A stretch of 64,000 nt of DNA from an uncultured archaeon (GCA_964558645.1 CAZLEV010000005.1:64001-128000), one strand, 5' to 3'. Positions 38,481 to 64,000 are shown, counted from the first letter of the stretch. Notes: generated by a model from the letters alone, not told the origin. Numbers and translations are program-made.

Positions 38481-38882
38481 GTGATCCGGATTCCCATTGA
38501 GTATCTCTGGCTAGCCATAATCACCGGGGGATTGTATCTCTATCTAGAACACAGGGACGTTCGATTCGGAAATCTGCCTCTGACTTTCATCCTAGCCCTC
38601 ATCTGGTCTGCGTGGAGCCTCTTCATTGTCATCTCCGTCGGACCACACCTCACAGGCCCGTTTGCTCCTGATCCGCCGGGTCTGACTCCAAGCCCTTCAC
38701 TGATAAGAGCCACCATCTTCACATTCATGATTGCTCCCACTGTCCTCCTGCTTTGGTTCATGGTAGAGACCCAGCTTCTGACATTGCTAGAGCACAACAG
38801 AGATAGTAACTCGAACCATAGAGTTAAATATCTTCACAATAGTTATTTCGTGAAGGTCAGGTGCGACCGAGATGACAGATAA
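38481..38882 (+). CDS. Small membrane protein (about 3 TM)
   Basis: Hydrophobic segments; GGAGAGGTGA SD before GTG. Confidence 0.6.
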   Translation: MIRIPIEYLWLAIITGGLYLYLEHRDVRFGNLPLTFILALIWSAWSLFIVISVGPHLTGPFAPDPPGLTPSPSLIRATIFTFMIAPTVLLLWFMVETQLLTLLEHNRDSNSNHRVKYLHNSYFVKVRCDRDDR

Positions 38883-39111
38883 ACCTGTGACGACCATTGA
38901 TTGTGTAGGACTCTACTGTCCACAACCCATCTTTCAGACAAGAGAGGGAATCGAGTCAGTAGAGATCGGTGAAGTAGTGGAGATTCTTGCAGATGACCCA
39001 GGAGCGGAGTCCGACTTGAAACGGTTCACAAAGAGGACTGGCCATGAGCTCGTTTCATTCCAGAAGCTGGAAGATGGAGTCCTCCGATTCCTGATCAGAC
39101 GAAAGAAGTAG
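38872..39111 (+). CDS. tusA: TusA/SirA sulfur carrier
   Basis: IDCVGLYCPQP (CPxP) and LADDPGA..DL. Confidence 0.92.
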   Translation: MTDKPVTTIDCVGLYCPQPIFQTREGIESVEIGEVVEILADDPGAESDLKRFTKRTGHELVSFQKLEDGVLRFLIRRKK

Positions 39112-39126: not shown

Positions 39127-40305
39127 ATGAACAGCGTCTACCTGGACTATCACTCGTCGAAACCGACAGACAAGAGAGTAATTGACGAGATGATGCCCTA
39201 TTTCACAGAGCTATACGGGAACCCATCGTCGCTTCATAAGATAGGGGACCTCGCCTCCGATGCGATGGAGGCAAGCAGAAAGAAAGTGGCGGATTTCATC
39301 AATGCAGATGAAGACGAGATTGTATTCACAGGTAGTGCCACTGAGGCCACAAACATGGCGCTCATCGGCTATGCGATGAAGAACAAGCGGAAGGGCAAGC
39401 ACATCATCATAACCGAGGTCGAGCACATCTCAATCCGCAACATAGCCAAGTATCTTGAAGCGAATGGCTTCGATGTGTCACGGGTCCCTGTGGACCAATA
39501 TGGCATGGTGGCACCGGACAAGATTGAACGGAGGATTCGCGATGACACTATCCTCATCAGTGTGATCTATGCCAGCAACGAGATAGGTACAATCCAGCCA
39601 ATCAAGGCCATAGGTGAGATTGCAGCTAAGCATGATGTTGCATTTCACTCGGACGCTGTCGCAGCCGAGGGACTGGTCCCTCTCGATGTAAGACGTGACG
39701 GCATCAACCTGATGACACTGTCAGCAAATGATTTGTATGGCCCTCGAGGGGTCGGGGCGCTCTACATGCAGAAACGCTACAGGGTGAATCCGATTATAAT
39801 CGGCGGGGGACAAGAGAGAGGACTGCGGTCCGGCTCTGAAGACGTTCCCGGAATCGTTGGGATGGGAGCAGCCGCAACGCTTATGCAGAGGGAGATGAAG
39901 GACGAACTGAAGCGCATGGAGTCATTTCGAAACAGGACTATAGATACAATCCTTCAGGAAGTGCCCGATTCCTATCTGAACGGTCATCCAACTGAGAGAC
40001 TGGCAAGCAACTCACACCTCAGGTTCGACGGTATTGAAGGAGAGGCATTGCTACTCTCATTCAAAGATCACGATATTGCAGTGTCAACGGGCTCGGCGTG
40101 TACCTCAAAGACCCTTGAGGCATCCCACACACTCATTGCCACTGGTCTGACCCACGAAGAGGCCCACGGGTCACTGCAGCTGACAACCGGAAGATTCACT
40201 GAAGACTCTGACATTGATAGAGTGCTTGATGCGACCCCTGACATAGTTAGCAATCTCAGAAGACTGTCACCCATCTACAACGAGAAGAAGGTGTTTGTAA
40301 GATGA
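39127..40305 (+). CDS. iscS: IscS/NifS-family cysteine desulfurase homologue with the PLP Lys replaced by Asp
   Basis: VYLDY, YGNPSS, SNEIGT, RSGS and STGSACTS. It has LSANDLYGPRG in place of SxHKxYGPKG. Confidence 0.9.
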   Translation: MNSVYLDYHSSKPTDKRVIDEMMPYFTELYGNPSSLHKIGDLASDAMEASRKKVADFINADEDEIVFTGSATEATNMALIGYAMKNKRKGKHIIITEVEHISIRNIAKYLEANGFDVSRVPVDQYGMVAPDKIERRIRDDTILISVIYASNEIGTIQPIKAIGEIAAKHDVAFHSDAVAAEGLVPLDVRRDGINLMTLSANDLYGPRGVGALYMQKRYRVNPIIIGGGQERGLRSGSEDVPGIVGMGAAATLMQREMKDELKRMESFRNRTIDTILQEVPDSYLNGHPTERLASNSHLRFDGIEGEALLLSFKDHDIAVSTGSACTSKTLEASHTLIATGLTHEEAHGSLQLTTGRFTEDSDIDRVLDATPDIVSNLRRLSPIYNEKKVFVR

Positions 40306-41081
40306 AACCTACCAAATATTCAGACAAAGTATTAGACCACTTCAGAAACCCACGTAATGTCGGCGTACTCGAAGGCGATGATGTCTCAGTAGGGAGGGTT
40401 GGAAATCCGACCTGTGGAGACCAGATGGAGGTCTTCATCAAAGTACAAGACGACCGCATCGTGGACGCAAGATTCAGGACCTTTGGCTGCGGCTCAGCTA
40501 TTGCAACCAGTAGCATGGTCACGGAGATGGCAAAAGGGATGACATTGGACGAGGCCCTTGACATAGAAAGAGCAGATGTCGCAACAGAGCTCGAGGGTCT
40601 ACCACCAATAAAGATGCACTGCTCAAACCTTGCTGCTGACGCACTTCATGAGGCAATCAAGGCATACCGGGCCAGAGAGGGAAAGGAACTGTCCGAGGCG
40701 ATCGAAGATAATGGTCCGGAGCCCTCGTGTCTCATTGGCAAAGACGAGTATCTTGACAAGGGAGTCTACCTGGATGTTGCGGATACTGATGATTTCTCGG
40801 GCAAGAGAGTCATCGTTCTCCACACGGGCGGCGAGTCAGTAGATGCTGCACTAGAGCTCACGTCCCAGACCGACCGCGTTGTTCTGATAACACCAGAGAG
40901 AAATATAGTGACAACTGAGGATCTTGCAGAAGAGCTACGCAGGTCGTCGGTCAAGGTTATCACTGAGTCAAGAGTTCTCGAGGTCTTGGGCGACTACGAA
41001 GTCGAAAAGGTCCGTGTGCATAATCTAGACGAGGATGAGGAATACGACCTCTTCGTAGACGCAGTGGTCATCATCGAGTAG
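40302..41081 (+). CDS. iscU: IscU/NifU scaffold fused to a degenerate TrxB NADPH-binding domain
   Basis: HFRNPRNVG, GNPTCGD, FGCGSA and KMHCSNLA, followed by about 115 aa resembling the thioredoxin reductase middle domain. Confidence 0.9.
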   Translation: MKPTKYSDKVLDHFRNPRNVGVLEGDDVSVGRVGNPTCGDQMEVFIKVQDDRIVDARFRTFGCGSAIATSSMVTEMAKGMTLDEALDIERADVATELEGLPPIKMHCSNLAADALHEAIKAYRAREGKELSEAIEDNGPEPSCLIGKDEYLDKGVYLDVADTDDFSGKRVIVLHTGGESVDAALELTSQTDRVVLITPERNIVTTEDLAEELRRSSVKVITESRVLEVLGDYEVEKVRVHNLDEDEEYDLFVDAVVIIE

Positions 41082-56651: not shown

Positions 56652-58544
56652 TTGGTTTTAAGAGGAGATGACGCGGAATATCAGGAAGCAATCCGGTTCT
56701 GGGAGGGGCAAAGCGATACAAACAAACGAATAATCCTTCAGACCCTTGTAGAAAATAGCTGGGACTTCGAGGGGGTTACAGAGGAGTATGGTAGCAAGAT
56801 AGCTCGTATTCCCCTTTCTGTCTTGCAGGCGGAGTATAAGAGGCTGAATCTGACTCCTAGGCGATTGGAGAAAGAATTCCGAGATCCGTTGAAGGCAACT
56901 CCTTTGAAGAATACTCTGAAGCGTTTGAGTCAGACCTGTACCGCAGAGGAGGCGATCGCAGAGTTAGTAGACAATGTCTTCGACAACTTTGCGAGGAAAC
57001 GTCATGAACGTACAACGGATCTCTTGGAAATCGGCATTCACTTCCTCTCTCGTGAGGGGGAACACTACGACGAGATAATCCTCAGGGAGAATAGTGGGGG
57101 GGTCAGGAATGATGAGCTTCTCCCGTTGGTTCGGTTGGGGGACTCGGCGACTGCCGGAGCACGCACGATCGGTGCATGGGGACAAGGATCGAAGATTGCA
57201 TGCTTTGCCCTAGCAGATGAAATAGAGATTTTTACCCATCATCCTGCCCATCGTCCGGTCTGTATTCATTTCCCAGACGGATGGCTAAAGGAAGAACACC
57301 CACGATACAAAGACTGGGAAGTGAAAGTATACGAAGCTGAGGATGTACCTAGTGGGACAACGGTATTTCGTTTCTGTAACTTGAAGACAACGGCAAGAAC
57401 GGCTGACCTGACAGCTATCAAGAAATACCTTGAGAGAATCTATTCCTACAAAATCCAGGATTGGAGAGAACAGGGTACCACGATTGATATCCGATTAGAA
57501 GATACACTGAGCGATGTATCCTATGAAATTGAACCCGTTTTCACTGTTGATATTCTCGAGGAAGAGAGGGGCTTCTGTTGGTTTCCTGATTATGCACCAT
57601 TGGAGGTGACTCATGTGCTCGAAAGCGAAACGCCGTTGGGTGAGAAGATCGAAGTCAAGGTAAGGATGGTTTGTGGTATACTGAGTGATTCGAAGTCGGA
57701 CCTAGGGGGAGTATATATGTACGGTAATAAGCGACTCTTCACACCAAAGCCGGAAACTGATGAAAGGGTGGGTTACGGTCTAGATGTTCAGGGAAGGAGA
57801 GGCAAGATTCAGAAATATCGGCCCTCGCTCTATCGTCTTTTGACATTTGTCTTCTTCGAAAGCGAGGAACAGGAGTCTGAGTATATACCTTGGGCTGCAC
57901 CTCTCAAGAACCGGTATAATCCAAGTAACGTCTTTCATGATGAAATAATCCAGATTCTCTACAGAATAGTCTATCCGTATAGTCTTGTATGCGAAGGTCT
58001 AGAGAGGGAAATGCTACCATTCTTTTCCAAAAGATGGGACGCTCTTGGCCGCCAAGAGAAGAAGAACCTAGTGGAATCATTCTTTGGCGGAGACGTGAAT
58101 CCCGAGGAAGTAGTCAAATACCATATCATTGAAGGCAACCTGGACAATCTTCGTCAGTTCCCTTTTGAACAAGTAAAGGGAATCAGCGACTTGCCCTTCG
58201 GGCAAGTAAAATCTTCAACAGTGAAGAAGTTCCTAGAAAAAGTCAAAGATGAGAAGTTCAACGTTGGAAGGAGAGAGTTCTTCTTGGCATTCTTCTCGGG
58301 CACGGTGAATCGACTAGTCGGTGAAGGAGTGCTCGACATAGACTTACCCGCACCAGATCCAGATCATATCAATATGGAGTACATAGAGAGTTGCCTTGAG
58401 CAGATGGAGCAGCTGTACGAGTCGGGGACAATCAAGCTTGAGATGGATGAGAAGGAGAAACTACAGAAGAAACTCAATCTACCAGAAGAGGCATCTGTAG
58501 CTGAGATTATCGATGCACTTGCAAAGAAAGAACTCGGCATCTAG
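56652..58544 (+). CDS. GHKL (HATPase_c/MORC-like) ATPase
   Basis: AIAELVDN (motif I), ENSGG (II), IGAWGQGSK (III) and SGTTV (IV); S5-like GVYMYGNKRLF. Confidence 0.85.
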   Translation: MVLRGDDAEYQEAIRFWEGQSDTNKRIILQTLVENSWDFEGVTEEYGSKIARIPLSVLQAEYKRLNLTPRRLEKEFRDPLKATPLKNTLKRLSQTCTAEEAIAELVDNVFDNFARKRHERTTDLLEIGIHFLSREGEHYDEIILRENSGGVRNDELLPLVRLGDSATAGARTIGAWGQGSKIACFALADEIEIFTHHPAHRPVCIHFPDGWLKEEHPRYKDWEVKVYEAEDVPSGTTVFRFCNLKTTARTADLTAIKKYLERIYSYKIQDWREQGTTIDIRLEDTLSDVSYEIEPVFTVDILEEERGFCWFPDYAPLEVTHVLESETPLGEKIEVKVRMVCGILSDSKSDLGGVYMYGNKRLFTPKPETDERVGYGLDVQGRRGKIQKYRPSLYRLLTFVFFESEEQESEYIPWAAPLKNRYNPSNVFHDEIIQILYRIVYPYSLVCEGLEREMLPFFSKRWDALGRQEKKNLVESFFGGDVNPEEVVKYHIIEGNLDNLRQFPFEQVKGISDLPFGQVKSSTVKKFLEKVKDEKFNVGRREFFLAFFSGTVNRLVGEGVLDIDLPAPDPDHINMEYIESCLEQMEQLYESGTIKLEMDEKEKLQKKLNLPEEASVAEIIDALAKKELGI

Positions 58545-58559
58545 TGGAGAAAGCAGCAG

Positions 58560-59060
58560 ATGCGATACAGAAGTGTGACGGAAAAGGACATTCTGTTCAT
58601 TCTTGAGGAATCGATTAGTAAGTTGCCGCATCATCCTTGGATCCAGACCGAGAGTGACATAAAATGCGCACTTTATACCGCGTTTTACAATATGATTTCA
58701 GTCCGAATAGCCAATCTCGAGAGCTGTGGTTGGCGAGTCATTACGGAGTATCCATTACCCGACGGCAAGTATGTCGATTTTGCTGTTCTCCACAACGGCC
58801 ATCCGTGTTTGTTTGTTGAGATAAAATACATCAAGAATTTCACAACTAAGGAAATCGCGGATATTCGGGAGGACTACTTGAAGAGAAAATCCTTTCTGAT
58901 CAGCGAAGAAGTCAAGCTGCTACAGCTTGTTGCAAGTGAGTTTGACGGGGACTACGAAGAGGTGATTTGCGAGAAGATGATAAGAGCATATGGCGAACTC
59001 TATGAGGGGGGTCTGGGAGGAAAGGCATACATCATATATATTCGGATTCCAAGTGGCTGA
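58560..59060 (+). CDS. PD-(D/E)XK-type nuclease
   Basis: TESD, EYP...YVDFAVL......FVEIKY and a downstream helix DY.KR. Confidence 0.72.
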   Translation: MRYRSVTEKDILFILEESISKLPHHPWIQTESDIKCALYTAFYNMISVRIANLESCGWRVITEYPLPDGKYVDFAVLHNGHPCLFVEIKYIKNFTTKEIADIREDYLKRKSFLISEEVKLLQLVASEFDGDYEEVICEKMIRAYGELYEGGLGGKAYIIYIRIPSG

Positions 59061-59085
59061 GGCAGAAACTACAGAAAGCGCATTG

Positions 59086-59472
59086 CTACTCCGTTAGTAC
59101 ACTCTTCTGACGACTGTCAAGCAAAAGCAAGAAGTCATCAAGCGATCTGATCCTCGTGTGGATCAGGGATATGCCTCGGTTAAGGTGAGCCTTGAGATAG
59201 GCTTCAGCCTTTTCGAAGTCGATTTCATCTGCAGATAACCGTTCGATCAGAAGAGATCTGAAAGCATTATCCCATTTTCCCGTTAAAGAGTACCTATTCA
59301 GTTCTTTGCCATCTTCATCGAAGTCGAAACTTGGAAACCCCTCTTTCTCCATCGAATAGCAGAGAGCAACTCGACACAGAAGATTCGGTGTTATTCCTGT
59401 CCTCCGCCTCAAGACAGTTAGTTTGGAGGTTGACGACCGACTGACCTTGATTTTCTTGAATTCCAGCTTCAT
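59086..59472 (-). CDS. dndE: DNA phosphorothioation protein DndE
   Basis: TGITPNLLCRVALCYS, GKELNRYSLTG and KAHLNRG; ATGA-coupled to dndD. Confidence 0.93.
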   Translation of the reverse strand: MKLEFKKIKVSRSSTSKLTVLRRRTGITPNLLCRVALCYSMEKEGFPSFDFDEDGKELNRYSLTGKWDNAFRSLLIERLSADEIDFEKAEAYLKAHLNRGISLIHTRIRSLDDFLLLLDSRQKSVLTE

Positions 59473-61460
59473 CCGCAGGTCCTCCTGGTCGTTGCTATTG
59501 TACGGCGTTCGGCACCATCAAACTGAAGATGGTATTCCTGAGATATGATGGGGCGGATCTTCTTTCCAACCTCTTCGGTAACTTCAGTTTCCGTAGCGAA
59601 CATTACTATCTGTGGACCTGCAAGTGGAATGAATTTCGAGATCACAGAGGCACGATGTTCCTCATCTAGTCGGGAGAATGGAGTATCAATGAAGACTGGC
59701 AGACTTCTCTTCGATATTTTAGAGATGGCGCCCAGTAGTGCATATATGTAGATTTGTTGTTCTCCTGAAGAAAGGACCGACGAGCCGGTTGTCCTGCCAT
59801 CGCTATGCTGGATACTGACATCAAGTGCATCCCTTCCAATTTCAACGGCACGGAGTCGTTTGTTACGGGGTCGCATGTTGTTGTAAATCTGCTTGAACTC
59901 TGCAGTCAGTTCTTCTGCATAAAATGAATGAAGTTCTCTCTTGAATTCTTTGACTACCCCACGGAGTCTGTCAACTAGTGCAAGTTTCCGTTTGTGCTTC
60001 TCGGCCGCCTCTGTTTCTTTCATTGCCTTGTTCTGACGGTTCCTAAGCTGCTCAATGTCAACAATGAGCGAATCAAGCTCGTCCTGAAGCTCGTTTTTCT
60101 CCCGTTCGATCTTCTCAAGGTCCCGTATAGAATCACGCAAATCGCTCACAAGAGGTTTGAGACTCTCATCTGTGGGCATTCGAGAGAGGTCATCGCGTAC
60201 TTGCTCCAGTGAGGCTTCTACTTGGCCGTATTCGCTTACATAGTCTCTGAATTCCTGAAGAGCTGTCGGCGCATCATGGGTAAGTAGTCTGACTACCCGG
60301 TCGGTTTCGAAAGAAGATAGCTTGTGACGAAGCGGAATATTGTGACTATTCTCAAGTCTGCTGGATATCGCATCCAGAATGTCCTCAGCTATGCGCTCCT
60401 TCTGGGAAGAGGATAAATCAAGTGAGTCGAACACGCCATCGGAAGCCATTGAGCTAGCAAGTTCCTTCTTGCCATCCTTCATCTTTCTGACTACTGCATT
60501 AGATGATATTATATCCGCTTCTCTCTTTAGAACCTCGACGGTCTTCTTCTTCAACGATGGGGCGAAAACAAACGGGAGAGCATTTGAGAAAAGCTCTAGT
60601 ATTGCTCGCTCTAATGTTTCTTTCTCAACAAGGAGATGTCGCTCTTGACGGTGAAGCTCGTTCCTTTGCTCAGCATACTCTGAGCCCTGCCTCGAAAGCC
60701 TTAGCTCCTGTTCCGTAATGGAAGCCTGGATATCGATGAGAAGGCCGTCGATTTCGGCTAGTCTCTCATGAATCCACTCGCTCCTCTCAGTCAACTCATT
60801 TATCTCATTCTCTAGCTTCTCGAACACAGAGAAGTCGGCCTGAATCTCCTTCTTGTTCAACCAGTACATGTATCTAGGCAAGTCGGAATCCAGTTGATTG
60901 ACAACATCGATTCCCACCAGAGTTTCAAATCCGTCTCTGAAAATCTTCTGTGGGCCGCGGGCTCCAGATAGTCGGTCTATTCGTTCCCCGTCGAAGAATA
61001 TCAGCTGGGCGAGTCCTGCAGGCACAAAATTCAGAAGGAATTCCTGAGGATAAGTGAGTTCCTTCTCTGGTTCTCCTCCCTGTAGAATTGATGCTCTGAG
61101 GTCCTCAATCACACCACCGTCTCTTTGAGTCCATGCGCGGGATATCCGGAGACGGTAATCGATACCTCGCTCAGCATAGGCTATTTCCAACTCTATTGAT
61201 GAAGTGTCGGCGGAGTTTCCGCCTGATATTCGCTGCTTGATGAAATCCTGGTAATCCGCTTCTTTCATCTTGATCCCTCGGAAGAAAGGGCCGTAGATGC
61301 AAAGAGAGATTGCCTGAAACAGTGTGCTCTTACCGGCGCCATTCTTCCCAGTGAAGAGAATCAACGAAGGTGATTGTTTTTCGTCTTCACAGGACAGACT
61401 GAAGCTATAAGATCCTCGATATGGACCGAAGTTCCGAATGTCTACAGAACGCACCCTCAT
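59469..61460 (-). CDS. dndD: DNA phosphorothioation SMC-like ATPase DndD
   Basis: NFGPY, GKNGAGKST, FFDGERI, coiled coil, LSSGEQQ, FIDTPFSRLD and ATETE. Confidence 0.95.
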   Translation of the reverse strand: MRVRSVDIRNFGPYRGSYSFSLSCEDEKQSPSLILFTGKNGAGKSTLFQAISLCIYGPFFRGIKMKEADYQDFIKQRISGGNSADTSSIELEIAYAERGIDYRLRISRAWTQRDGGVIEDLRASILQGGEPEKELTYPQEFLLNFVPAGLAQLIFFDGERIDRLSGARGPQKIFRDGFETLVGIDVVNQLDSDLPRYMYWLNKKEIQADFSVFEKLENEINELTERSEWIHERLAEIDGLLIDIQASITEQELRLSRQGSEYAEQRNELHRQERHLLVEKETLERAILELFSNALPFVFAPSLKKKTVEVLKREADIISSNAVVRKMKDGKKELASSMASDGVFDSLDLSSSQKERIAEDILDAISSRLENSHNIPLRHKLSSFETDRVVRLLTHDAPTALQEFRDYVSEYGQVEASLEQVRDDLSRMPTDESLKPLVSDLRDSIRDLEKIEREKNELQDELDSLIVDIEQLRNRQNKAMKETEAAEKHKRKLALVDRLRGVVKEFKRELHSFYAEELTAEFKQIYNNMRPRNKRLRAVEIGRDALDVSIQHSDGRTTGSSVLSSGEQQIYIYALLGAISKISKRSLPVFIDTPFSRLDEEHRASVISKFIPLAGPQIVMFATETEVTEEVGKKIRPIISQEYHLQFDGAERRTIATTRRTCG

Positions 61461-62860
61461 CGATCAAGCTTCCTCCTAGTAGCAAGCACTTCCTCTTTCG
61501 ACCGCCATTCCTCAGAGAAGACTCGGTCGATATGTTCCATCATCGAAGATCTTCTCGCTAGACCCTGCTTCAACGCCTCCAAATCAAGTAATTTCTTGAC
61601 AAGATCTAGTGGCACATTCTCTTTCTCACAGAGGCTCTGAAGAATATCCTGCTCTTTCATTCCGAAGGTGACTATGTCGTCCGTCTTCCACTCCAAGTCC
61701 TTATCCATCTCTTCTCGATATATTTTTGGAACACGATCAAGCCAATCTGCACGCTCCAATCGCCAGATACGGCGGATTGCATGTAATTCATCAGAGCGAA
61801 TAACCACGAAGGTATCCAGACCTGTTTCATCTATCTTCTTCTGAACTCTTAGCACCATTCTTAGTATCTTCTCACACACATCAAGCCTGTATGGGCCTGG
61901 AACGATGGCACTGGAATCATTTCGCATGAAAGAAACACGGCCGTTTCGTCTTTTGTACTGGCGATATTCCTTCTTCTTCTCCGGATTAGTAGTCATATGC
62001 AAGAAGTCCCTTATCTCGAGAAGATCACTCATCCAACCTCTTCTGGTGTCAATTAGATGTTCCATGGATCTATCGCTTTCCACGAGCGTACAGACCCAGC
62101 ATCCGAAACGCGAGTTACCACAAGGAGGCGTCTTTGTGTCAACAACCATAGGGCACTCTCCGCCCTCGGCATCTTTATAGAGATCAAACAGGGCGTAGTT
62201 ATCACCGCCCCAAGGGGAACTCTCTTCCAGTAGATAACCCCAAACTTCGTCTACACTAAACTCCTTGATAGGAGCATAGACATAAGCTCCCGCAAAGTGT
62301 GTATGTTTGAGGAGCTTCGGCCTTTTCGTTTCTCTCAAACTGAGTACTTGATCGCGTGTGGCACTTTCACCCTGTCTGACACCCAATACGATTATCACTT
62401 CGCCATGATACGCAATCTTCTCCTCAATGAATCTGTTCGATGGTCGTATCTTCAAACGATCCGTACACCAGCGAAATTTCTGGGTTGGAGCAGGATATCC
62501 TCTCCCAATAAGGTTCACCCAGAAACTATCATTTATGGCGGGCTGAACCAATGCAATCTCAAATGGGAGATTCGCATCCTCGGCCGCATTCTTCATTCTT
62601 GAGAGAGAATCGCGTAGGTAGTCGAGGACAACAGGGTTCTCTACGAATGTATCGGAGGATATGACATAGAGCTTCTTTTGCAGCTTCTTTCTCGGCAATT
62701 CGGACAGTGCAGACCAGACCATCTGTAAAGCCGCTGTGGAGTCCTTGCCCCCGCTGTAACCAACTATCCACGGGCGGTCGTCCGCAAGAAATAAGCTTCT
62801 GATTTCCTCGTATATGTTACTGAGCCGCCACTCATCTATGATCACCGATGTTTCACTCAT
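61457..62860 (-). CDS. dndC: DNA phosphorothioation sulfurtransferase DndC (PAPS-reductase family, Fe-S)
   Basis: GYSGGKDS, FWVNLIGRGYPAP..FRWCTDRLKI, ECP and CGNSRFGCWVCT. Confidence 0.96.
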   Translation of the reverse strand: MSETSVIIDEWRLSNIYEEIRSLFLADDRPWIVGYSGGKDSTAALQMVWSALSELPRKKLQKKLYVISSDTFVENPVVLDYLRDSLSRMKNAAEDANLPFEIALVQPAINDSFWVNLIGRGYPAPTQKFRWCTDRLKIRPSNRFIEEKIAYHGEVIIVLGVRQGESATRDQVLSLRETKRPKLLKHTHFAGAYVYAPIKEFSVDEVWGYLLEESSPWGGDNYALFDLYKDAEGGECPMVVDTKTPPCGNSRFGCWVCTLVESDRSMEHLIDTRRGWMSDLLEIRDFLHMTTNPEKKKEYRQYKRRNGRVSFMRNDSSAIVPGPYRLDVCEKILRMVLRVQKKIDETGLDTFVVIRSDELHAIRRIWRLERADWLDRVPKIYREEMDKDLEWKTDDIVTFGMKEQDILQSLCEKENVPLDLVKKLLDLEALKQGLARRSSMMEHIDRVFSEEWRSKEEVLATRRKLDR

Positions 62861-63169
62861 TGACGACGACCCCGACTTCCAAGACGCTCTGCCATTTTCT
62901 CTCTGAGTTCATACTCCCTGAAATGCCTTTTCCTTTCGGGCCTCAGATTCGCAAAGGAACAGCACTCATGGGAGTATCTGTTACTCCTATGTGAGCATCT
63001 GTACATCAAGCTTCCCAATTCCATTTCCCTCATCATGTGTGTTCCACTTGCTGCAATAAAAGGTCGTCAATTCCCTGAATCTCTCATCATTGATTTCGAA
63101 GAATCATGAGATCATGTAGCTCTGCTTGTCTTCTCATACACTATACCTGGTGATTCCCCAAGAGCTCGT

Positions 63170-63802
63170 CTATTCGTACTCATTCGACAAGAACTGCTTG
63201 GGTATTTCTGCAAGTACCTTCTTCTCGAACTGCTCTCTGACTCTAACAAAGTCAAGAGCAATGTACTCAGGCGCGTGTGACCTCATCTTCCACTCTACAA
63301 ACCTGCTGCTCGCAAGTTTGTCGATGAAGGATATGTCCCCATCTTCTCTTGCGGCATCAGAGTAGTACGGAAACACGACATTGGTTACGAAATCGTCATC
63401 GAGGATTATGTCAAGAAAGTCGTAAAGCTTCCGCCTGTATTCAACTTCCCTTTCTTGATCCAGATCCTCGTTCCTTGATAACCACAGGAGAAGAAGTGCA
63501 TTGCGAAGCATGTTTACTTCTTTCTCTACATTGGCACTGAACTCATAGCTGCCGTCGCAAGGGAACTCGTCAACTTCCAACGGAGGAAGTTTGACGGTTG
63601 AGTAGAGCCCGTAGAAGACTGTTAGAAGGAGGATGTCCACCTTCCTGGGTCCGCTAAGGTAGTCAGTTTCGTTGTACTGATCACGTCCCTCCTTCCCGGC
63701 TGCTGGAGATTCAGCAGTCTGCTCACCCACCGCCTTCAGAAGACTCTCAAGTTGTTTCGGCATTCTGATATTACCTTTTAACTGCATGTTCCCAGACCTC
63801 AC
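63170..63802 (-). CDS. Dnd-associated hypothetical protein (PbeD/DndE-like candidate)
   Basis: GTGA-coupled to the upstream ABC/SMC ATPase and located directly upstream of dndC. Confidence 0.6.
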   Translation of the reverse strand: MRSGNMQLKGNIRMPKQLESLLKAVGEQTAESPAAGKEGRDQYNETDYLSGPRKVDILLLTVFYGLYSTVKLPPLEVDEFPCDGSYEFSANVEKEVNMLRNALLLLWLSRNEDLDQEREVEYRRKLYDFLDIILDDDFVTNVVFPYYSDAAREDGDISFIDKLASSRFVEWKMRSHAPEYIALDFVRVREQFEKKVLAEIPKQFLSNEYE

Positions 63803-64000
63803 TTCGGATTCTCGATTTTTTCGACCTCTGCAGAGAAATACTCAGCAAAATCATCAAGCTCGGTGGGCAAACAAAGCAGCATGACTTGTGGATGATTGTT
63901 CACCAAATGCTTTGCAAGGGCAGCTCTGTGACTTCCAACATTGCCCACAGGCGTGTCGATAATGATGGGATCAACCTGGCTCATTGCCTCCGCGAAGAGA
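63799..64000 (-). CDS. C-terminus of a second SMC/DndD-like ATPase (PbeC-like candidate), partial
   Basis: Frame is open to the window edge: LFAEAMSQVDPIIIDTPVGNV..HR...QVMLL..PTE, a Walker B/D-loop region parallel to DndD PVFIDTPFSRLD...QIVMFATETE. Confidence 0.7.
   Translation of the reverse strand, partial: LFAEAMSQVDPIIIDTPVGNVGSHRAALAKHLVNNHPQVMLLCLPTELDDFAEYFSAEVEKIENPK

What the first reader, a model, noticed from the sequence alone, without database searches (positions are those of the whole stretch)
39127..40305. IscS whose PLP Schiff-base lysine is replaced by aspartate
Seen: LSANDLYGPRG (GAT codon at 39730-39732) in place of SxHKxYGPKG, and DAVA in place of DAxQ, while the Cys loop GSACTS is intact. 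Known: Archaeoglobus fulgidus IscS has the same Lys-to-Asp change, reportedly lacks desulfurase activity and supplies a Cys ligand to the IscU cluster. Inference: a sulfide-fed, desulfurase-independent Fe-S/persulfide system, here unusually retaining TusA.
Basis: partly seen in the sequence, partly recalled or inferred. Interest (0 to 1): 0.7.

Follow-up and report, generated by a model that had tools for sequence, protein, structure and literature searches.

The report
Lysine-less IscS linked to TusA
This Asgard (Thorarchaeota) gene is a well-conserved member of the known "dead" cysteine-desulfurase type first seen in Archaeoglobus fulgidus, and its neighbour TusA is a regular partner of this type rather than an oddity, which hints at where such iron-sulfur assembly systems get their sulfur.

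Summary
ORF 39127-40305 (+) encodes a 392-aa type-I IscS/NifS homologue with LSANDLYGPRG (Asp202, GAT at 39730-39732), HSDAVA, and an intact GSAC Cys loop.

Its best solved relative is A. fulgidus IscS2 (4EB5, E 2e-131), which has the same changes. The substrate-carboxylate Arg is also lost (Q351).

The signature K12/A179/N201/D202/Q351 occurs in 118 of 119 nearest homologues. dN/dS is 0.05-0.08. The N-D-x-Y-G-P-[KR]-G motif occurs in 229 of 400 Asgard-phylum genomes. So this is a conserved, working pseudo-desulfurase and not a local oddity.

The claim "unusually retaining TusA" is wrong:
- TusA lay upstream in all 42 Asgard loci that could be judged.
- TusA lay within 3 kb in 9 of 9 lysine-less metagenome loci, against 0 of 62 lysine-bearing ones.
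- Most relatives also carry a DsrE gene between tusA and iscS. This genus has lost it.

The genome also holds lysine-bearing desulfurases (a SufS-like gene and a NifS-SelD fusion), so the cell as a whole is not desulfurase-free.

Most likely the protein pairs with the genome's only IscU and lends its Cys loop, with sulfur coming from a TusA(/DsrE) relay or from sulfide.

This scan has reached the same reading before on other DNA.

Verdict: new variant of a known kind; moderate interest.

The parts
38481..38882 (+). ORF133, a hydrophobic 133-aa ORF whose end overlaps the tusA start. It is of uncertain reality and may belong to the operon.
   Evidence: Open frame. tblastn found it only in the two same-genus loci, at 62-78% identity. 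No Pfam family. No similarity to the DUF5400 membrane protein of the second TusA locus.
38872..39111 (+). tusA, a 79-aa sulfur-carrier protein with the C-x-G-L-x-C-P motif.
   Evidence: Pfam PF01206 at E 6.9e-23, 80.7 bits. Sequence. It lies upstream of the lysine-less iscS in all 42 evaluable Asgard loci.
39127..40305 (+). iscS* (MisS/IscS-like), a lysine-less type-I cysteine-desulfurase homologue of the A. fulgidus IscS2 type.
39160..39162 (+). Lys12 codon. This lysine is specific to the clade and replaces the second Thr of the A-A-T-T-P pocket motif.
   Evidence: K in 96% of clade A against T in 95% of lysine-bearing representatives. A. fulgidus IscS2 also has K here (alignment).
39661..39663 (+). 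Ala179 codon, in place of the PLP-O3'-binding Gln (E. coli Q183).
   Evidence: Q is 100% in the lysine-bearing set by selection; A is 100% in clade A.
39727..39732 (+). Asn201-Asp202 codons, in place of the His-Lys of SxHK (the Schiff-base lysine).
40099..40101 (+). Cys325 codon of the retained mobile Cys loop (S-T-G-S-A-C).
   Evidence: S320, G322, S323, A324 and C325 are at least 90% conserved in both the lysine-bearing and lysine-less sets.
40177..40179 (+). Gln351 codon, in place of the Arg that binds the substrate carboxylate (E. coli R354; the numbering is from my own knowledge).
   Evidence: R in 100% of 129 lysine-bearing representatives; Q in 98% of clade A; L or V in clade B. A. fulgidus IscS2 has L.
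40302..41081 (+). iscU fusion. The IscU scaffold (residues 1-~130, with C38, D40, C63, H106, C107) is followed by a degenerate TrxR/FNR NAD(P)H-domain-like C-terminal domain (~145-259). Its start overlaps the iscS* stop (ATGA).
   Evidence: Pfam NifU_N at E 1.2e-49. PDB sequence matches. Model with pLDDT 82.8 and Foldseek matches to 4eb5_C and to TrxR 2zbw/3f8d at rmsd 1.5-2.6 A. Conserved in 22 aligned orthologues. It is the only NifU_N gene in the genome.

Best explanation
The gene encodes an A. fulgidus-IscS2-type pseudo-desulfurase. It is a type-I IscS/NifS-fold protein that has lost four active-site residues: the Schiff-base Lys (D202), the neighbouring His (N201), the PLP-O3' Gln (A179) and the substrate-carboxylate Arg (Q351). 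It therefore cannot mobilise sulfur from cysteine itself. It keeps the fold, the other cofactor-pocket residues (H100, N151, D176, S199) and the mobile Cys325 loop. It is under strong purifying selection. It is translationally coupled to the genome's only IscU. The sequence changes, the selection and the coupling are shown here. By homology with the solved A. fulgidus complex, I infer that it forms an (IscS*-IscU)2 complex in which Cys325 reaches the IscU site as a cluster ligand and/or sulfur carrier. In most relatives a DsrE-family carrier would also take part. TusA could be loaded from sulfane sulfur or by the cell's lysine-bearing SufS-like or NifS-SelD enzymes. Direct use of free sulfide is the alternative entry route.
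For: Identity and motifs. Closest solved relative is 4eb5/4hvk (E 2.1e-131, 441.6 bits, residues 4-385), which shares K12, A179, N201-D202 and a non-Arg at position 351. Literature: AfIscS is inactive, binds PMP/PLP non-covalently, the D199K variant still binds PMP, and Cys ligates the IscU [2Fe-2S] cluster (PMC7585200; PMC8918507; PMC13066941). Differential conservation: Q179, H201, K202, R351 and A10-T12 are replaced, while H100, N151, D176 and C325 are kept. The signature KANDQ occurs in 118 of 119 homologues. dN/dS is 0.047 and 0.076. The protein scores below the NCBIfam cut-offs for NifS (451 against 530.75) and IscS (388 against 643). There is only one IscU gene in the genome. TusA linkage: 42 of 42 evaluable Asgard loci, with DsrE (PF02635, E 1e-14) between in 30 of 42. 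In metagenome loci, 9 of 9 lysine-less against 0 of 62 lysine-bearing have TusA within 3 kb. A second gene order, iscS*-iscU-dsrE2-tusA, occurs in clade B loci L108 and L145.
Against: No biochemistry exists for this protein. Inactivity is inferred from A. fulgidus and from the residue losses. The TusA association is genomic only and says nothing about the direction of sulfur flow. Related genomes are not independent samples. The AU test does not reject a single origin of lysine-less clades A and B (p 0.185), so the linkage may reflect one ancestral event. In this window the DsrE member of the cassette is absent, and only a 31%-identical paralogue lies elsewhere. Lys12, a clade-specific lysine in the pocket motif, could not be placed relative to the cofactor because no coordinates were available.
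Confidence: 0.7

Rival explanations
1. The IscS*-IscU pair builds clusters directly from free sulfide. TusA is not a donor but a downstream acceptor or an unrelated carrier that happens to be kept.
For: Sulfide as the sulfur source was proposed for A. fulgidus (PMC8918507) and for the MIS and SMS systems (PMC13066941). Thorarchaeota live in sulfidic sediments (my knowledge). This genus has lost the DsrE gene from the operon, so the relay is at least partly dispensable here.
Against: TusA is found beside lysine-less IscS genes and never beside the 62 lysine-bearing ones sampled. It is kept in two different gene orders. That pattern is hard to explain if TusA had no role tied to the loss of catalysis. 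Lysine-bearing IscS, which can load TusA in E. coli, shows no such linkage.
Confidence: 0.2
2. The protein still performs PLP- or PMP-dependent chemistry. It could use the clade-specific Lys12 or a non-covalently bound cofactor, either as a weak desulfurase or with a different substrate.
For: The cofactor-pocket residues H100, D176, S199 and T72 are kept. AfIscS crystals contain PMP or PLP (PMC8918507). The replacement residues K12, N201, D202 and Q351 are themselves 96-98% conserved, which suggests a constrained new site and not simple decay.
Against: AfIscS has the same K12 and D and shows no desulfurase activity. The Arg that anchors the amino-acid carboxylate is lost in both lysine-less clades. 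In other clade A members the Lys site drifts to A, S or P and residue 12 to L, T, S, A or V. A catalytic residue would not drift like that.
Confidence: 0.05
3. The tusA-iscS*-iscU unit mainly serves sulfur or selenium trafficking to other acceptors and not Fe-S assembly. Possible acceptors are thiolation reactions, Moco, or the dndA-less DNA-phosphorothioation island 17 kb downstream.
For: TusA also weakly matches the YedF selenium-metabolism models. The genome uses selenocysteine and has a NifS-SelD fusion.
Against: The gene is coupled to a complete IscU with all cluster ligands, and that IscU is the only one in the genome. A protein without Lys, Gln and Arg cannot replace DndA as a desulfurase. 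The NifS domain of the SelD fusion scores far better on the DndA model (404 bits) and keeps the HK motif.
Confidence: 0.05

Closest known systems
Archaeoglobus fulgidus IscS2 (AF0564) with IscU; PDB 4EB5, 4EB7, 4HVK; D199K variant 4R5F
   Same: Best solved match: E 2.1e-131, 441.6 bits, over residues 4-385. It shares the Asn-Asp in place of His-Lys, Ala in place of the DAxQ Gln, Lys at the position of residue 12, a non-Arg at position 351, and an intact GSAC loop. Its IscU partner is also the best structural match of the window's IscU domain (4eb5_C).
   Different: Residue 351 is Gln here and Leu in A. fulgidus. The IscU here carries an extra TrxR-like C-terminal domain. The host is an Asgard archaeon and not a sulfate-reducing euryarchaeon. 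TusA directly precedes the gene here.
Methanosarcina acetivorans IscS1 (one of three IscS/MisS copies)
   Same: It is reported to lack the catalytic lysine and was suggested to act like AfIscS (PMC7585200).
   Different: It coexists with a functional, lysine-bearing IscS2-IscU2 pair in the same organism. Here the only IscU is paired with the lysine-less protein. Its sequence was not compared here.
E. coli IscS-TusA and IscS-IscU complexes (PDB 3LVJ, 3LVL)
   Same: The same three protein families (IscS fold, TusA, IscU) contact each other through the IscS Cys loop (PMC2854127, listed). E. coli IscS matches at E 1.8e-89.
   Different: E. coli IscS is catalytic and donates sulfur to TusA. Here the IscS-like protein cannot make persulfide from cysteine, so any flow is more plausibly from TusA to IscS*/IscU.
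TusA-DsrE sulfur-relay pairs of sulfur oxidisers (e.g. archaeal DsrE3A-TusA, sHdr-associated cascades)
   Same: Small Cys-carrier proteins of the same Pfam families (PF01206, PF02635/PF13686) are encoded side by side. These are established sulfane or thiosulfonate carriers (PMC11094781).
   Different: Those relays feed dissimilatory sulfur oxidation (sHdr, rDsr). Here they are joined to an Fe-S scaffold pair. The window itself lacks the DsrE member.
MIS (MisS-MisU) minimal Fe-S system of archaea (Garcia et al. 2022, as summarised in PMC13066941 and PMC12442378)
   Same: An archaeal two-gene IscS-like/IscU-like pair, with no chaperone or carrier genes seen within the operon.
   Different: MisS is defined there as a cysteine desulfurase, and this protein lacks the catalytic residues. 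The primary paper is not held, so I could not check whether it notes the lysine-less subgroup.

Membership tests
A. fulgidus-type lysine-less IscS (inactive type-I desulfurase paralogue) | Type-I class-V aminotransferase sequence and fold, closest to AfIscS2 | tested here: met
   PF00266 at E 6.6e-68. 4eb5_A is the top PDB match at E 2.1e-131; the next, lysine-bearing, match is at 9e-100.
A. fulgidus-type lysine-less IscS (inactive type-I desulfurase paralogue) | Schiff-base Lys replaced by Asp (S-x-N-D) | tested here: met
   Asp202, GAT at 39730-39732, aligned to Asp199 of AfIscS.
A. fulgidus-type lysine-less IscS (inactive type-I desulfurase paralogue) | Catalytic-loop Cys retained and an IscU partner encoded next to it | tested here: met
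   Cys325 in STGSAC. iscU starts at 40302 and overlaps the iscS* stop.
A. fulgidus-type lysine-less IscS (inactive type-I desulfurase paralogue) | No cysteine desulfurase activity; non-covalent PMP or PLP | not testable with these tools
   Needs an enzyme assay and cofactor analysis. Only the residue losses are shown.
Catalytic type-I cysteine desulfurase (IscS TIGR02006 / NifS TIGR03402) | PLP-binding S-x-H-K lysine | tested here: not met
   Asn-Asp at 201-202.
Catalytic type-I cysteine desulfurase (IscS TIGR02006 / NifS TIGR03402) | DAxQ glutamine and the substrate-carboxylate arginine | tested here: not met
   A179 and Q351. The Arg is 100% conserved in the 129 lysine-bearing representatives; the Gln is 100% in that set by selection.
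Catalytic type-I cysteine desulfurase (IscS TIGR02006 / NifS TIGR03402) | Score above the curated NCBIfam cut-off | tested here: not met
   NifS 451.4 against 530.75; IscS 387.9 against 643.2.
TusA sulfur carrier (PF01206) | TusA domain with the conserved Cys-Pro active-site motif | tested here: met
   80.7 bits against a cut-off of 28.6. CVGLYCPQP is present. The score is below the NCBIfam E. coli-type TusA equivalog cut-off (52.5 against 78).
tusA-dsrE-iscS*-iscU cassette as found in relatives | tusA upstream of, and iscU downstream of, a lysine-less iscS | tested here: met
   38872-39111, 39127-40305 and 40302-41081. The same layout occurs in 42 of 42 evaluable loci.
tusA-dsrE-iscS*-iscU cassette as found in relatives | DsrE-family gene between tusA and iscS* | tested here: not met
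   Only 15 bases separate tusA and iscS* here. DsrE is present in 30 of 42 loci. The best match in this genome is a 31%-identical paralogue on contig 21.
MIS (MisS-MisU) minimal system | Adjacent IscS-like and IscU-like genes in an archaeon | tested here: met
   The organism is placed in Thorarchaeota by the names of its homologues.
MIS (MisS-MisU) minimal system | MisS acts as a cysteine desulfurase | tested here: not met
   The catalytic Lys, Gln and Arg are absent. Activity itself is untested.

The most novel reading that the evidence does not exclude
Lysine-less IscS is not just a passive Cys ligand. It would be the receiving end of a TusA(/DsrE) persulfide relay. That would make this a cysteine-independent, carrier-fed route into IscU and the main IscU pathway of a large part of the Asgard archaea. 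The degenerate TrxR-like domain fused to IscU would serve as a docking or electron-entry module.
Probability: 0.4. Interest if true: 0.75.

Novelty: new variant of a known kind. Interest (0 to 1): 0.5.

Why it matters
How A. fulgidus-type IscS-IscU pairs obtain sulfur without desulfurase activity is stated as an open question in the 2022 review of cysteine-desulfurase structures (PMC8918507).

This locus shows three things. The "dead" IscS is a strongly conserved protein, the motif is widespread in Asgard genomes, and here it partners the only IscU in its genome. In the loci sampled, it is accompanied by the sulfur carrier TusA, and usually DsrE, while lysine-bearing IscS/NifS genes are not.

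That turns the open question into simple experiments: persulfide transfer from TusA to Cys325 to IscU, compared with sulfide.

It also matters for annotation. These genes are named "cysteine desulfurase" in the public records, which overstates what they can do. That affects metabolic reconstructions of the closest archaeal relatives of eukaryotes, and any attempt to name the sulfur donor for the dndA-less phosphorothioation island in this same window.

Tried and rejected
Gene neighbourhoods had to come from the genome search and the search for related loci.
- The single genome-contig scan used a single-protein query. It returned mostly Thorarchaeota plus a few unrelated lysine-bearing genes, and no Archaeoglobus or methanogen locus. 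The A. fulgidus neighbourhood is therefore untested here.
- The primary MIS/SMS paper (Garcia et al. 2022) is not held. Six literature searches found no paper describing a TusA/DsrE link to lysine-less IscS or the Asgard distribution. This covers only the held library.
- Independent loss of the lysine in clades A and B: the free trees need 5 changes, of which 3 are forced by well-supported branches. But the AU test does not reject A and B forming one clade (p 0.185). I therefore do not claim convergent loss for those two. Only the small Q-H-[L/M] group (P0167, L141, L146) is clearly separate.
- Pseudogene or decay reading: rejected by dN/dS of 0.05-0.08 and 96-98% conservation of the replacement residues.
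- ORF133 as a relative of the DUF5400 membrane protein next to the second TusA: no similarity.
- Bacterial-type promoter and terminator scan of the operon: nothing above shuffled expectation.
- NCBIfam gave no family for the operon-type DsrE of relatives. Pfam did.
- I did not model IscS* itself, because the tools return no coordinates. The distance from Lys12 to the cofactor could not have been measured.

Full report
1. OBSERVATION

The frame 39127-40305 (+) is open and encodes 392 residues. It reads HSDAVA at residues 174-179. It reads STGSACTS with Cys325 at 40099-40101.

Pfam assigns it to Aminotran_5 at E 6.6e-68.

2. WHAT THE PROTEIN IS

Against all PDB sequences, the best match is A. 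fulgidus IscS2 (4eb5/4eb7/4hvk; E 2.1e-131, 441.6 bits, residues 4-385). Its engineered D199K variant 4r5f comes next. The best lysine-bearing desulfurase follows at 9e-100.

In that alignment the A. fulgidus protein shows SSNDIYGPKG, DATA and GSAC at the same places. NCBIfam places the window's protein below the curated cut-offs of NifS (451 against 530.75 bits) and IscS (388 against 643).

AfIscS has Asp199 for the catalytic Lys. It has no desulfurase activity. It carries PMP or PLP non-covalently, and the D199K variant still binds PMP. It gives a Cys ligand to the [2Fe-2S] cluster on IscU (PMC7585200; PMC8918507; PMC13066941). M. acetivorans IscS1 is reported to lack the lysine too.

3. THE LOSS IS BROADER THAN ONE RESIDUE, AND THE NEW STATE IS CONSTRAINED

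I aligned three sets:
- 129 lysine-bearing representatives from a search of 1.84 billion cluster representatives. I defined this set by having Lys at 202 and Gln at 179.
- 125 members of the window's lysine-less clade (clade A).
- 7 members of a second lysine-less group (clade B).

Some positions are at least 85% conserved in the lysine-bearing set but kept in under 20% of clade A. They include:
- the A-T-T of the N-terminal pocket motif, which becomes S-S/A-K;
- Gln179, which becomes Ala;
- His201, which becomes Asn;
- Lys202, which becomes Asp;
- Arg351, which becomes Gln. This Arg is 100% conserved in lysine-bearing proteins. By my knowledge it is the substrate-carboxylate Arg, R354 in E. 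coli.

Clade B also lost the Gln, the Lys and the Arg. In contrast, H100, N151, D176, the GGG-E-R-G region and S320/G322-C325 are at least 90% conserved in both sets, and S199 is kept in the lysine-less representatives examined.

The replacement residues are themselves conserved. The combination K12/A179/N201/D202/Q351 occurs in 118 of 119 nearest homologues. dN/dS against two same-genus orthologues is 0.047 and 0.076.

The protein is therefore neither a pseudogene nor an error. It is a stable derived form that has given up cysteine binding and aldimine chemistry while keeping the fold, much of the cofactor pocket and the Cys loop.

Lys12 is a possible "other lysine". However, A. fulgidus IscS2 has it too and is inactive. 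In more distant clade A members, residue 12 and residue 202 both drift.

4. DISTRIBUTION

The names attached to the closest homologues are Thorarchaeota, with Hermod-, Hod-, Odin-, Sif- and Promethearchaeota further out.

The DNA pattern for N-D-x-Y-G-P-[KR]-G matched as follows:
- 229 of 400 genomes of the phylum, almost always exactly once per genome;
- 62 of 90 high-quality genomes;
- 70 of 85 in the window's family, 108 of 135 in family f9, and none in several other families;
- zero matches of the reversed control pattern in the genomes listed.

Odinarchaeum LCB_4 has Ser at the Lys site. One clade B cluster carries bacterial names.

Trees with the trait columns masked need 5 changes of the lysine state, of which 3 are forced by well-supported branches. 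An AU test does not reject clades A and B being one clade (p 0.185). I therefore do not claim independent loss for those two groups.

5. THE NEIGHBOURHOOD, AND WHY "UNUSUALLY RETAINING TusA" IS WRONG

In the window the order is:
- ORF133 (38481-38882, doubtful);
- tusA (38872-39111; PF01206 at E 6.9e-23);
- iscS*;
- iscU fusion (40302-41081; NifU_N at E 1.2e-49).

The start and stop codons overlap between neighbours.

In 54 loci from relatives' genomes, every one of the 42 with enough upstream sequence has tusA upstream of the lysine-less iscS. This set includes the window's own locus and a few contigs that were fetched twice. Of those 42, 30 have a 115-120-aa DsrE-family gene (PF02635, E 1e-14, conserved Cys) between tusA and iscS. 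These include the distant 49-51%-identical Asgard lineages.

The window's genus and a few other Thorarchaeota genera lack that dsrE. In this genome, which is 92.8% complete, only a 31%-identical paralogue exists. It lies on contig 21 next to a second tusA.

A metagenome scan seeded with generic IscS motifs gave a natural control:
- Of the 68 lysine-bearing loci, 0 of the 62 evaluable ones have tusA within 3 kb.
- Of the 11 loci with both the Lys and the DAxQ Gln replaced, 9 of the 9 evaluable ones do.
- Fisher's exact test gives p 1e-11. Relatives are not independent samples, so this overstates the significance.

Two of the lysine-less loci (L108, L145, in clade B) have a different order, iscS*-iscU-dsrE2-tusA. 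Two loci in which only the Lys is changed (Q-H-L, with the Arg kept) have no tusA.

TusA, usually together with DsrE, is thus a regular partner of this protein type.

6. THE REST OF THE GENOME

The genome has one IscU gene, the one in this operon, and one SufB-type gene. It also has other class-V enzymes:
- a SufS-like protein with an intact HK motif and Cys (L001);
- a 742-aa NifS-SelD fusion with an HK motif and Cys (L002);
- a second SufS-like protein in which Ile replaces the Lys (L004).

The cell is therefore not free of desulfurases. Either lysine-bearing enzyme could load TusA.

7. MECHANISM

Shown here:
- loss of the four catalytic or binding residues;
- retention and constraint of the Cys loop and the fold;
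- coupling to the only IscU;
- regular linkage to TusA/DsrE.

Inferred by homology to 4EB5/4EB7: an (IscS*-IscU)2 complex in which Cys325 reaches the IscU cluster site.

Inferred from linkage: sulfur enters as protein persulfide through (DsrE to) TusA, then to Cys325 or IscU.

In this genus the relay is already reduced to TusA alone.

I put 0.7 on the overall reading, and about 0.4 to 0.5 on the relay step specifically.

8. THE IscU FUSION

This feature is the subject of a separate note of this scan. Residues ~145-259 fold confidently (pLDDT about 90). They superpose on the NAD(P)H domain of thioredoxin reductases and TrxR-type FNRs at rmsd 1.5-2.6 A and 26-31% identity.

In 22 orthologues the glycine-rich motif reads H-T-G-D-E-S. 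The stretch that aligns with the TrxR CxxC region holds no cysteine pair in the window's protein; that reading comes from inspecting the sequence against my knowledge of the TrxR motifs. A Cys in the linker is common.

The domain is present in the window's family and in family f9. It is absent from the more distant Asgard lineages. Its role is unknown.

9. COMPARISON AND NOVELTY

The protein is a new member of the A. fulgidus IscS2 kind.

Two things go beyond what I could find in the held literature: the system-level picture (the TusA/DsrE linkage, the Asgard-wide spread, and the IscU fusion) and the reduced tusA-only form in this genus. The primary MIS paper could not be read.

Earlier follow-ups of this scan on other genomes reached the same TusA/DsrE reading. 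I read those notes only after my own synteny and control counts.

Verdict: observation confirmed; interpretation partly supported; new variant of a known kind; interest 0.5.

Noticed in passing
window 40302-41081: IscU is fused to a degenerate TrxR/FNR NAD(P)H-domain-like module. The conserved motif is H-T-G-D-E-S in place of GxGxxA. No CxxC is present, the surface is very acidic, and a linker Cys is frequent. The domain is conserved in the window's family and in family f9 but absent from distant Asgard lineages.
   Followed up: partly
L004:1429-2652 (own genome, contig 20): A second lysine-less class-V enzyme. This SufS-like 407-aa protein reads S-A-N-I where S-x-H-K should be, and its Cys (RTGFLCAHP) is retained.
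   Followed up: no
L002:1483-3711 (own genome, contig 12): A 742-aa fusion of a lysine-bearing NifS-like desulfurase/selenocysteine-lyase domain with SelD (selD TIGR00476, E 1.5e-120). Open frames of 749-782 aa at the matching place in relatives G001, G002, G009, G013 and G014 suggest the fusion is conserved.
   Followed up: partly
L065:660-1854 (own genome, contig 21): A second sulfur-carrier cluster. tusA lies on the minus strand, followed by a DUF5400 membrane protein and a DsrE-family gene that is 31% identical to the operon-type DsrE of relatives.
   Followed up: partly
L064:1387-2523 (own genome, contig 1): Three consecutive small ORFs (153, 117 and 99 aa). Two of them match the DsrE family, so this may be a DsrEFH/TusBCD-like set.
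   Followed up: no
L108:830-3781 and L145:2459-5522 (metagenome loci): An alternative gene order, iscS*(K->Q)-iscU-dsrE2(PF13686)-tusA. In L108 it is preceded by an Nfu-type NifU domain gene, and in L145 by a weak hemerythrin-like gene.
   Followed up: partly
P0167, L141, L146: A tight group in which only the Schiff-base Lys is replaced (by Met or Leu), while the Gln, His and substrate Arg are kept. L141 and L146 have no tusA nearby. This may be a different, more recent kind of inactivation.
   Followed up: no
P0132: A possible intermediate. It keeps the H-K motif but already has Ala for the DAxQ Gln and Leu for the substrate Arg. It sits inside lysine-less clade B in both trees.
   Followed up: no
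window 38481-38882: A hydrophobic 133-aa ORF that overlaps the tusA start. It was detectable only in the two same-genus genomes and has no family match. It may be a small membrane protein or not a gene at all.
   Followed up: partly
window 56652-64000 (from earlier notes of this scan): A dndCDE/pbe island without dndA lies 17 kb downstream. Because the IscS* here lacks the catalytic Lys, Gln and Arg, it is a poor candidate for the missing desulfurase. The NifS-SelD fusion (DndA model, 404 bits) or the SufS-like gene fit better.
   Followed up: partly
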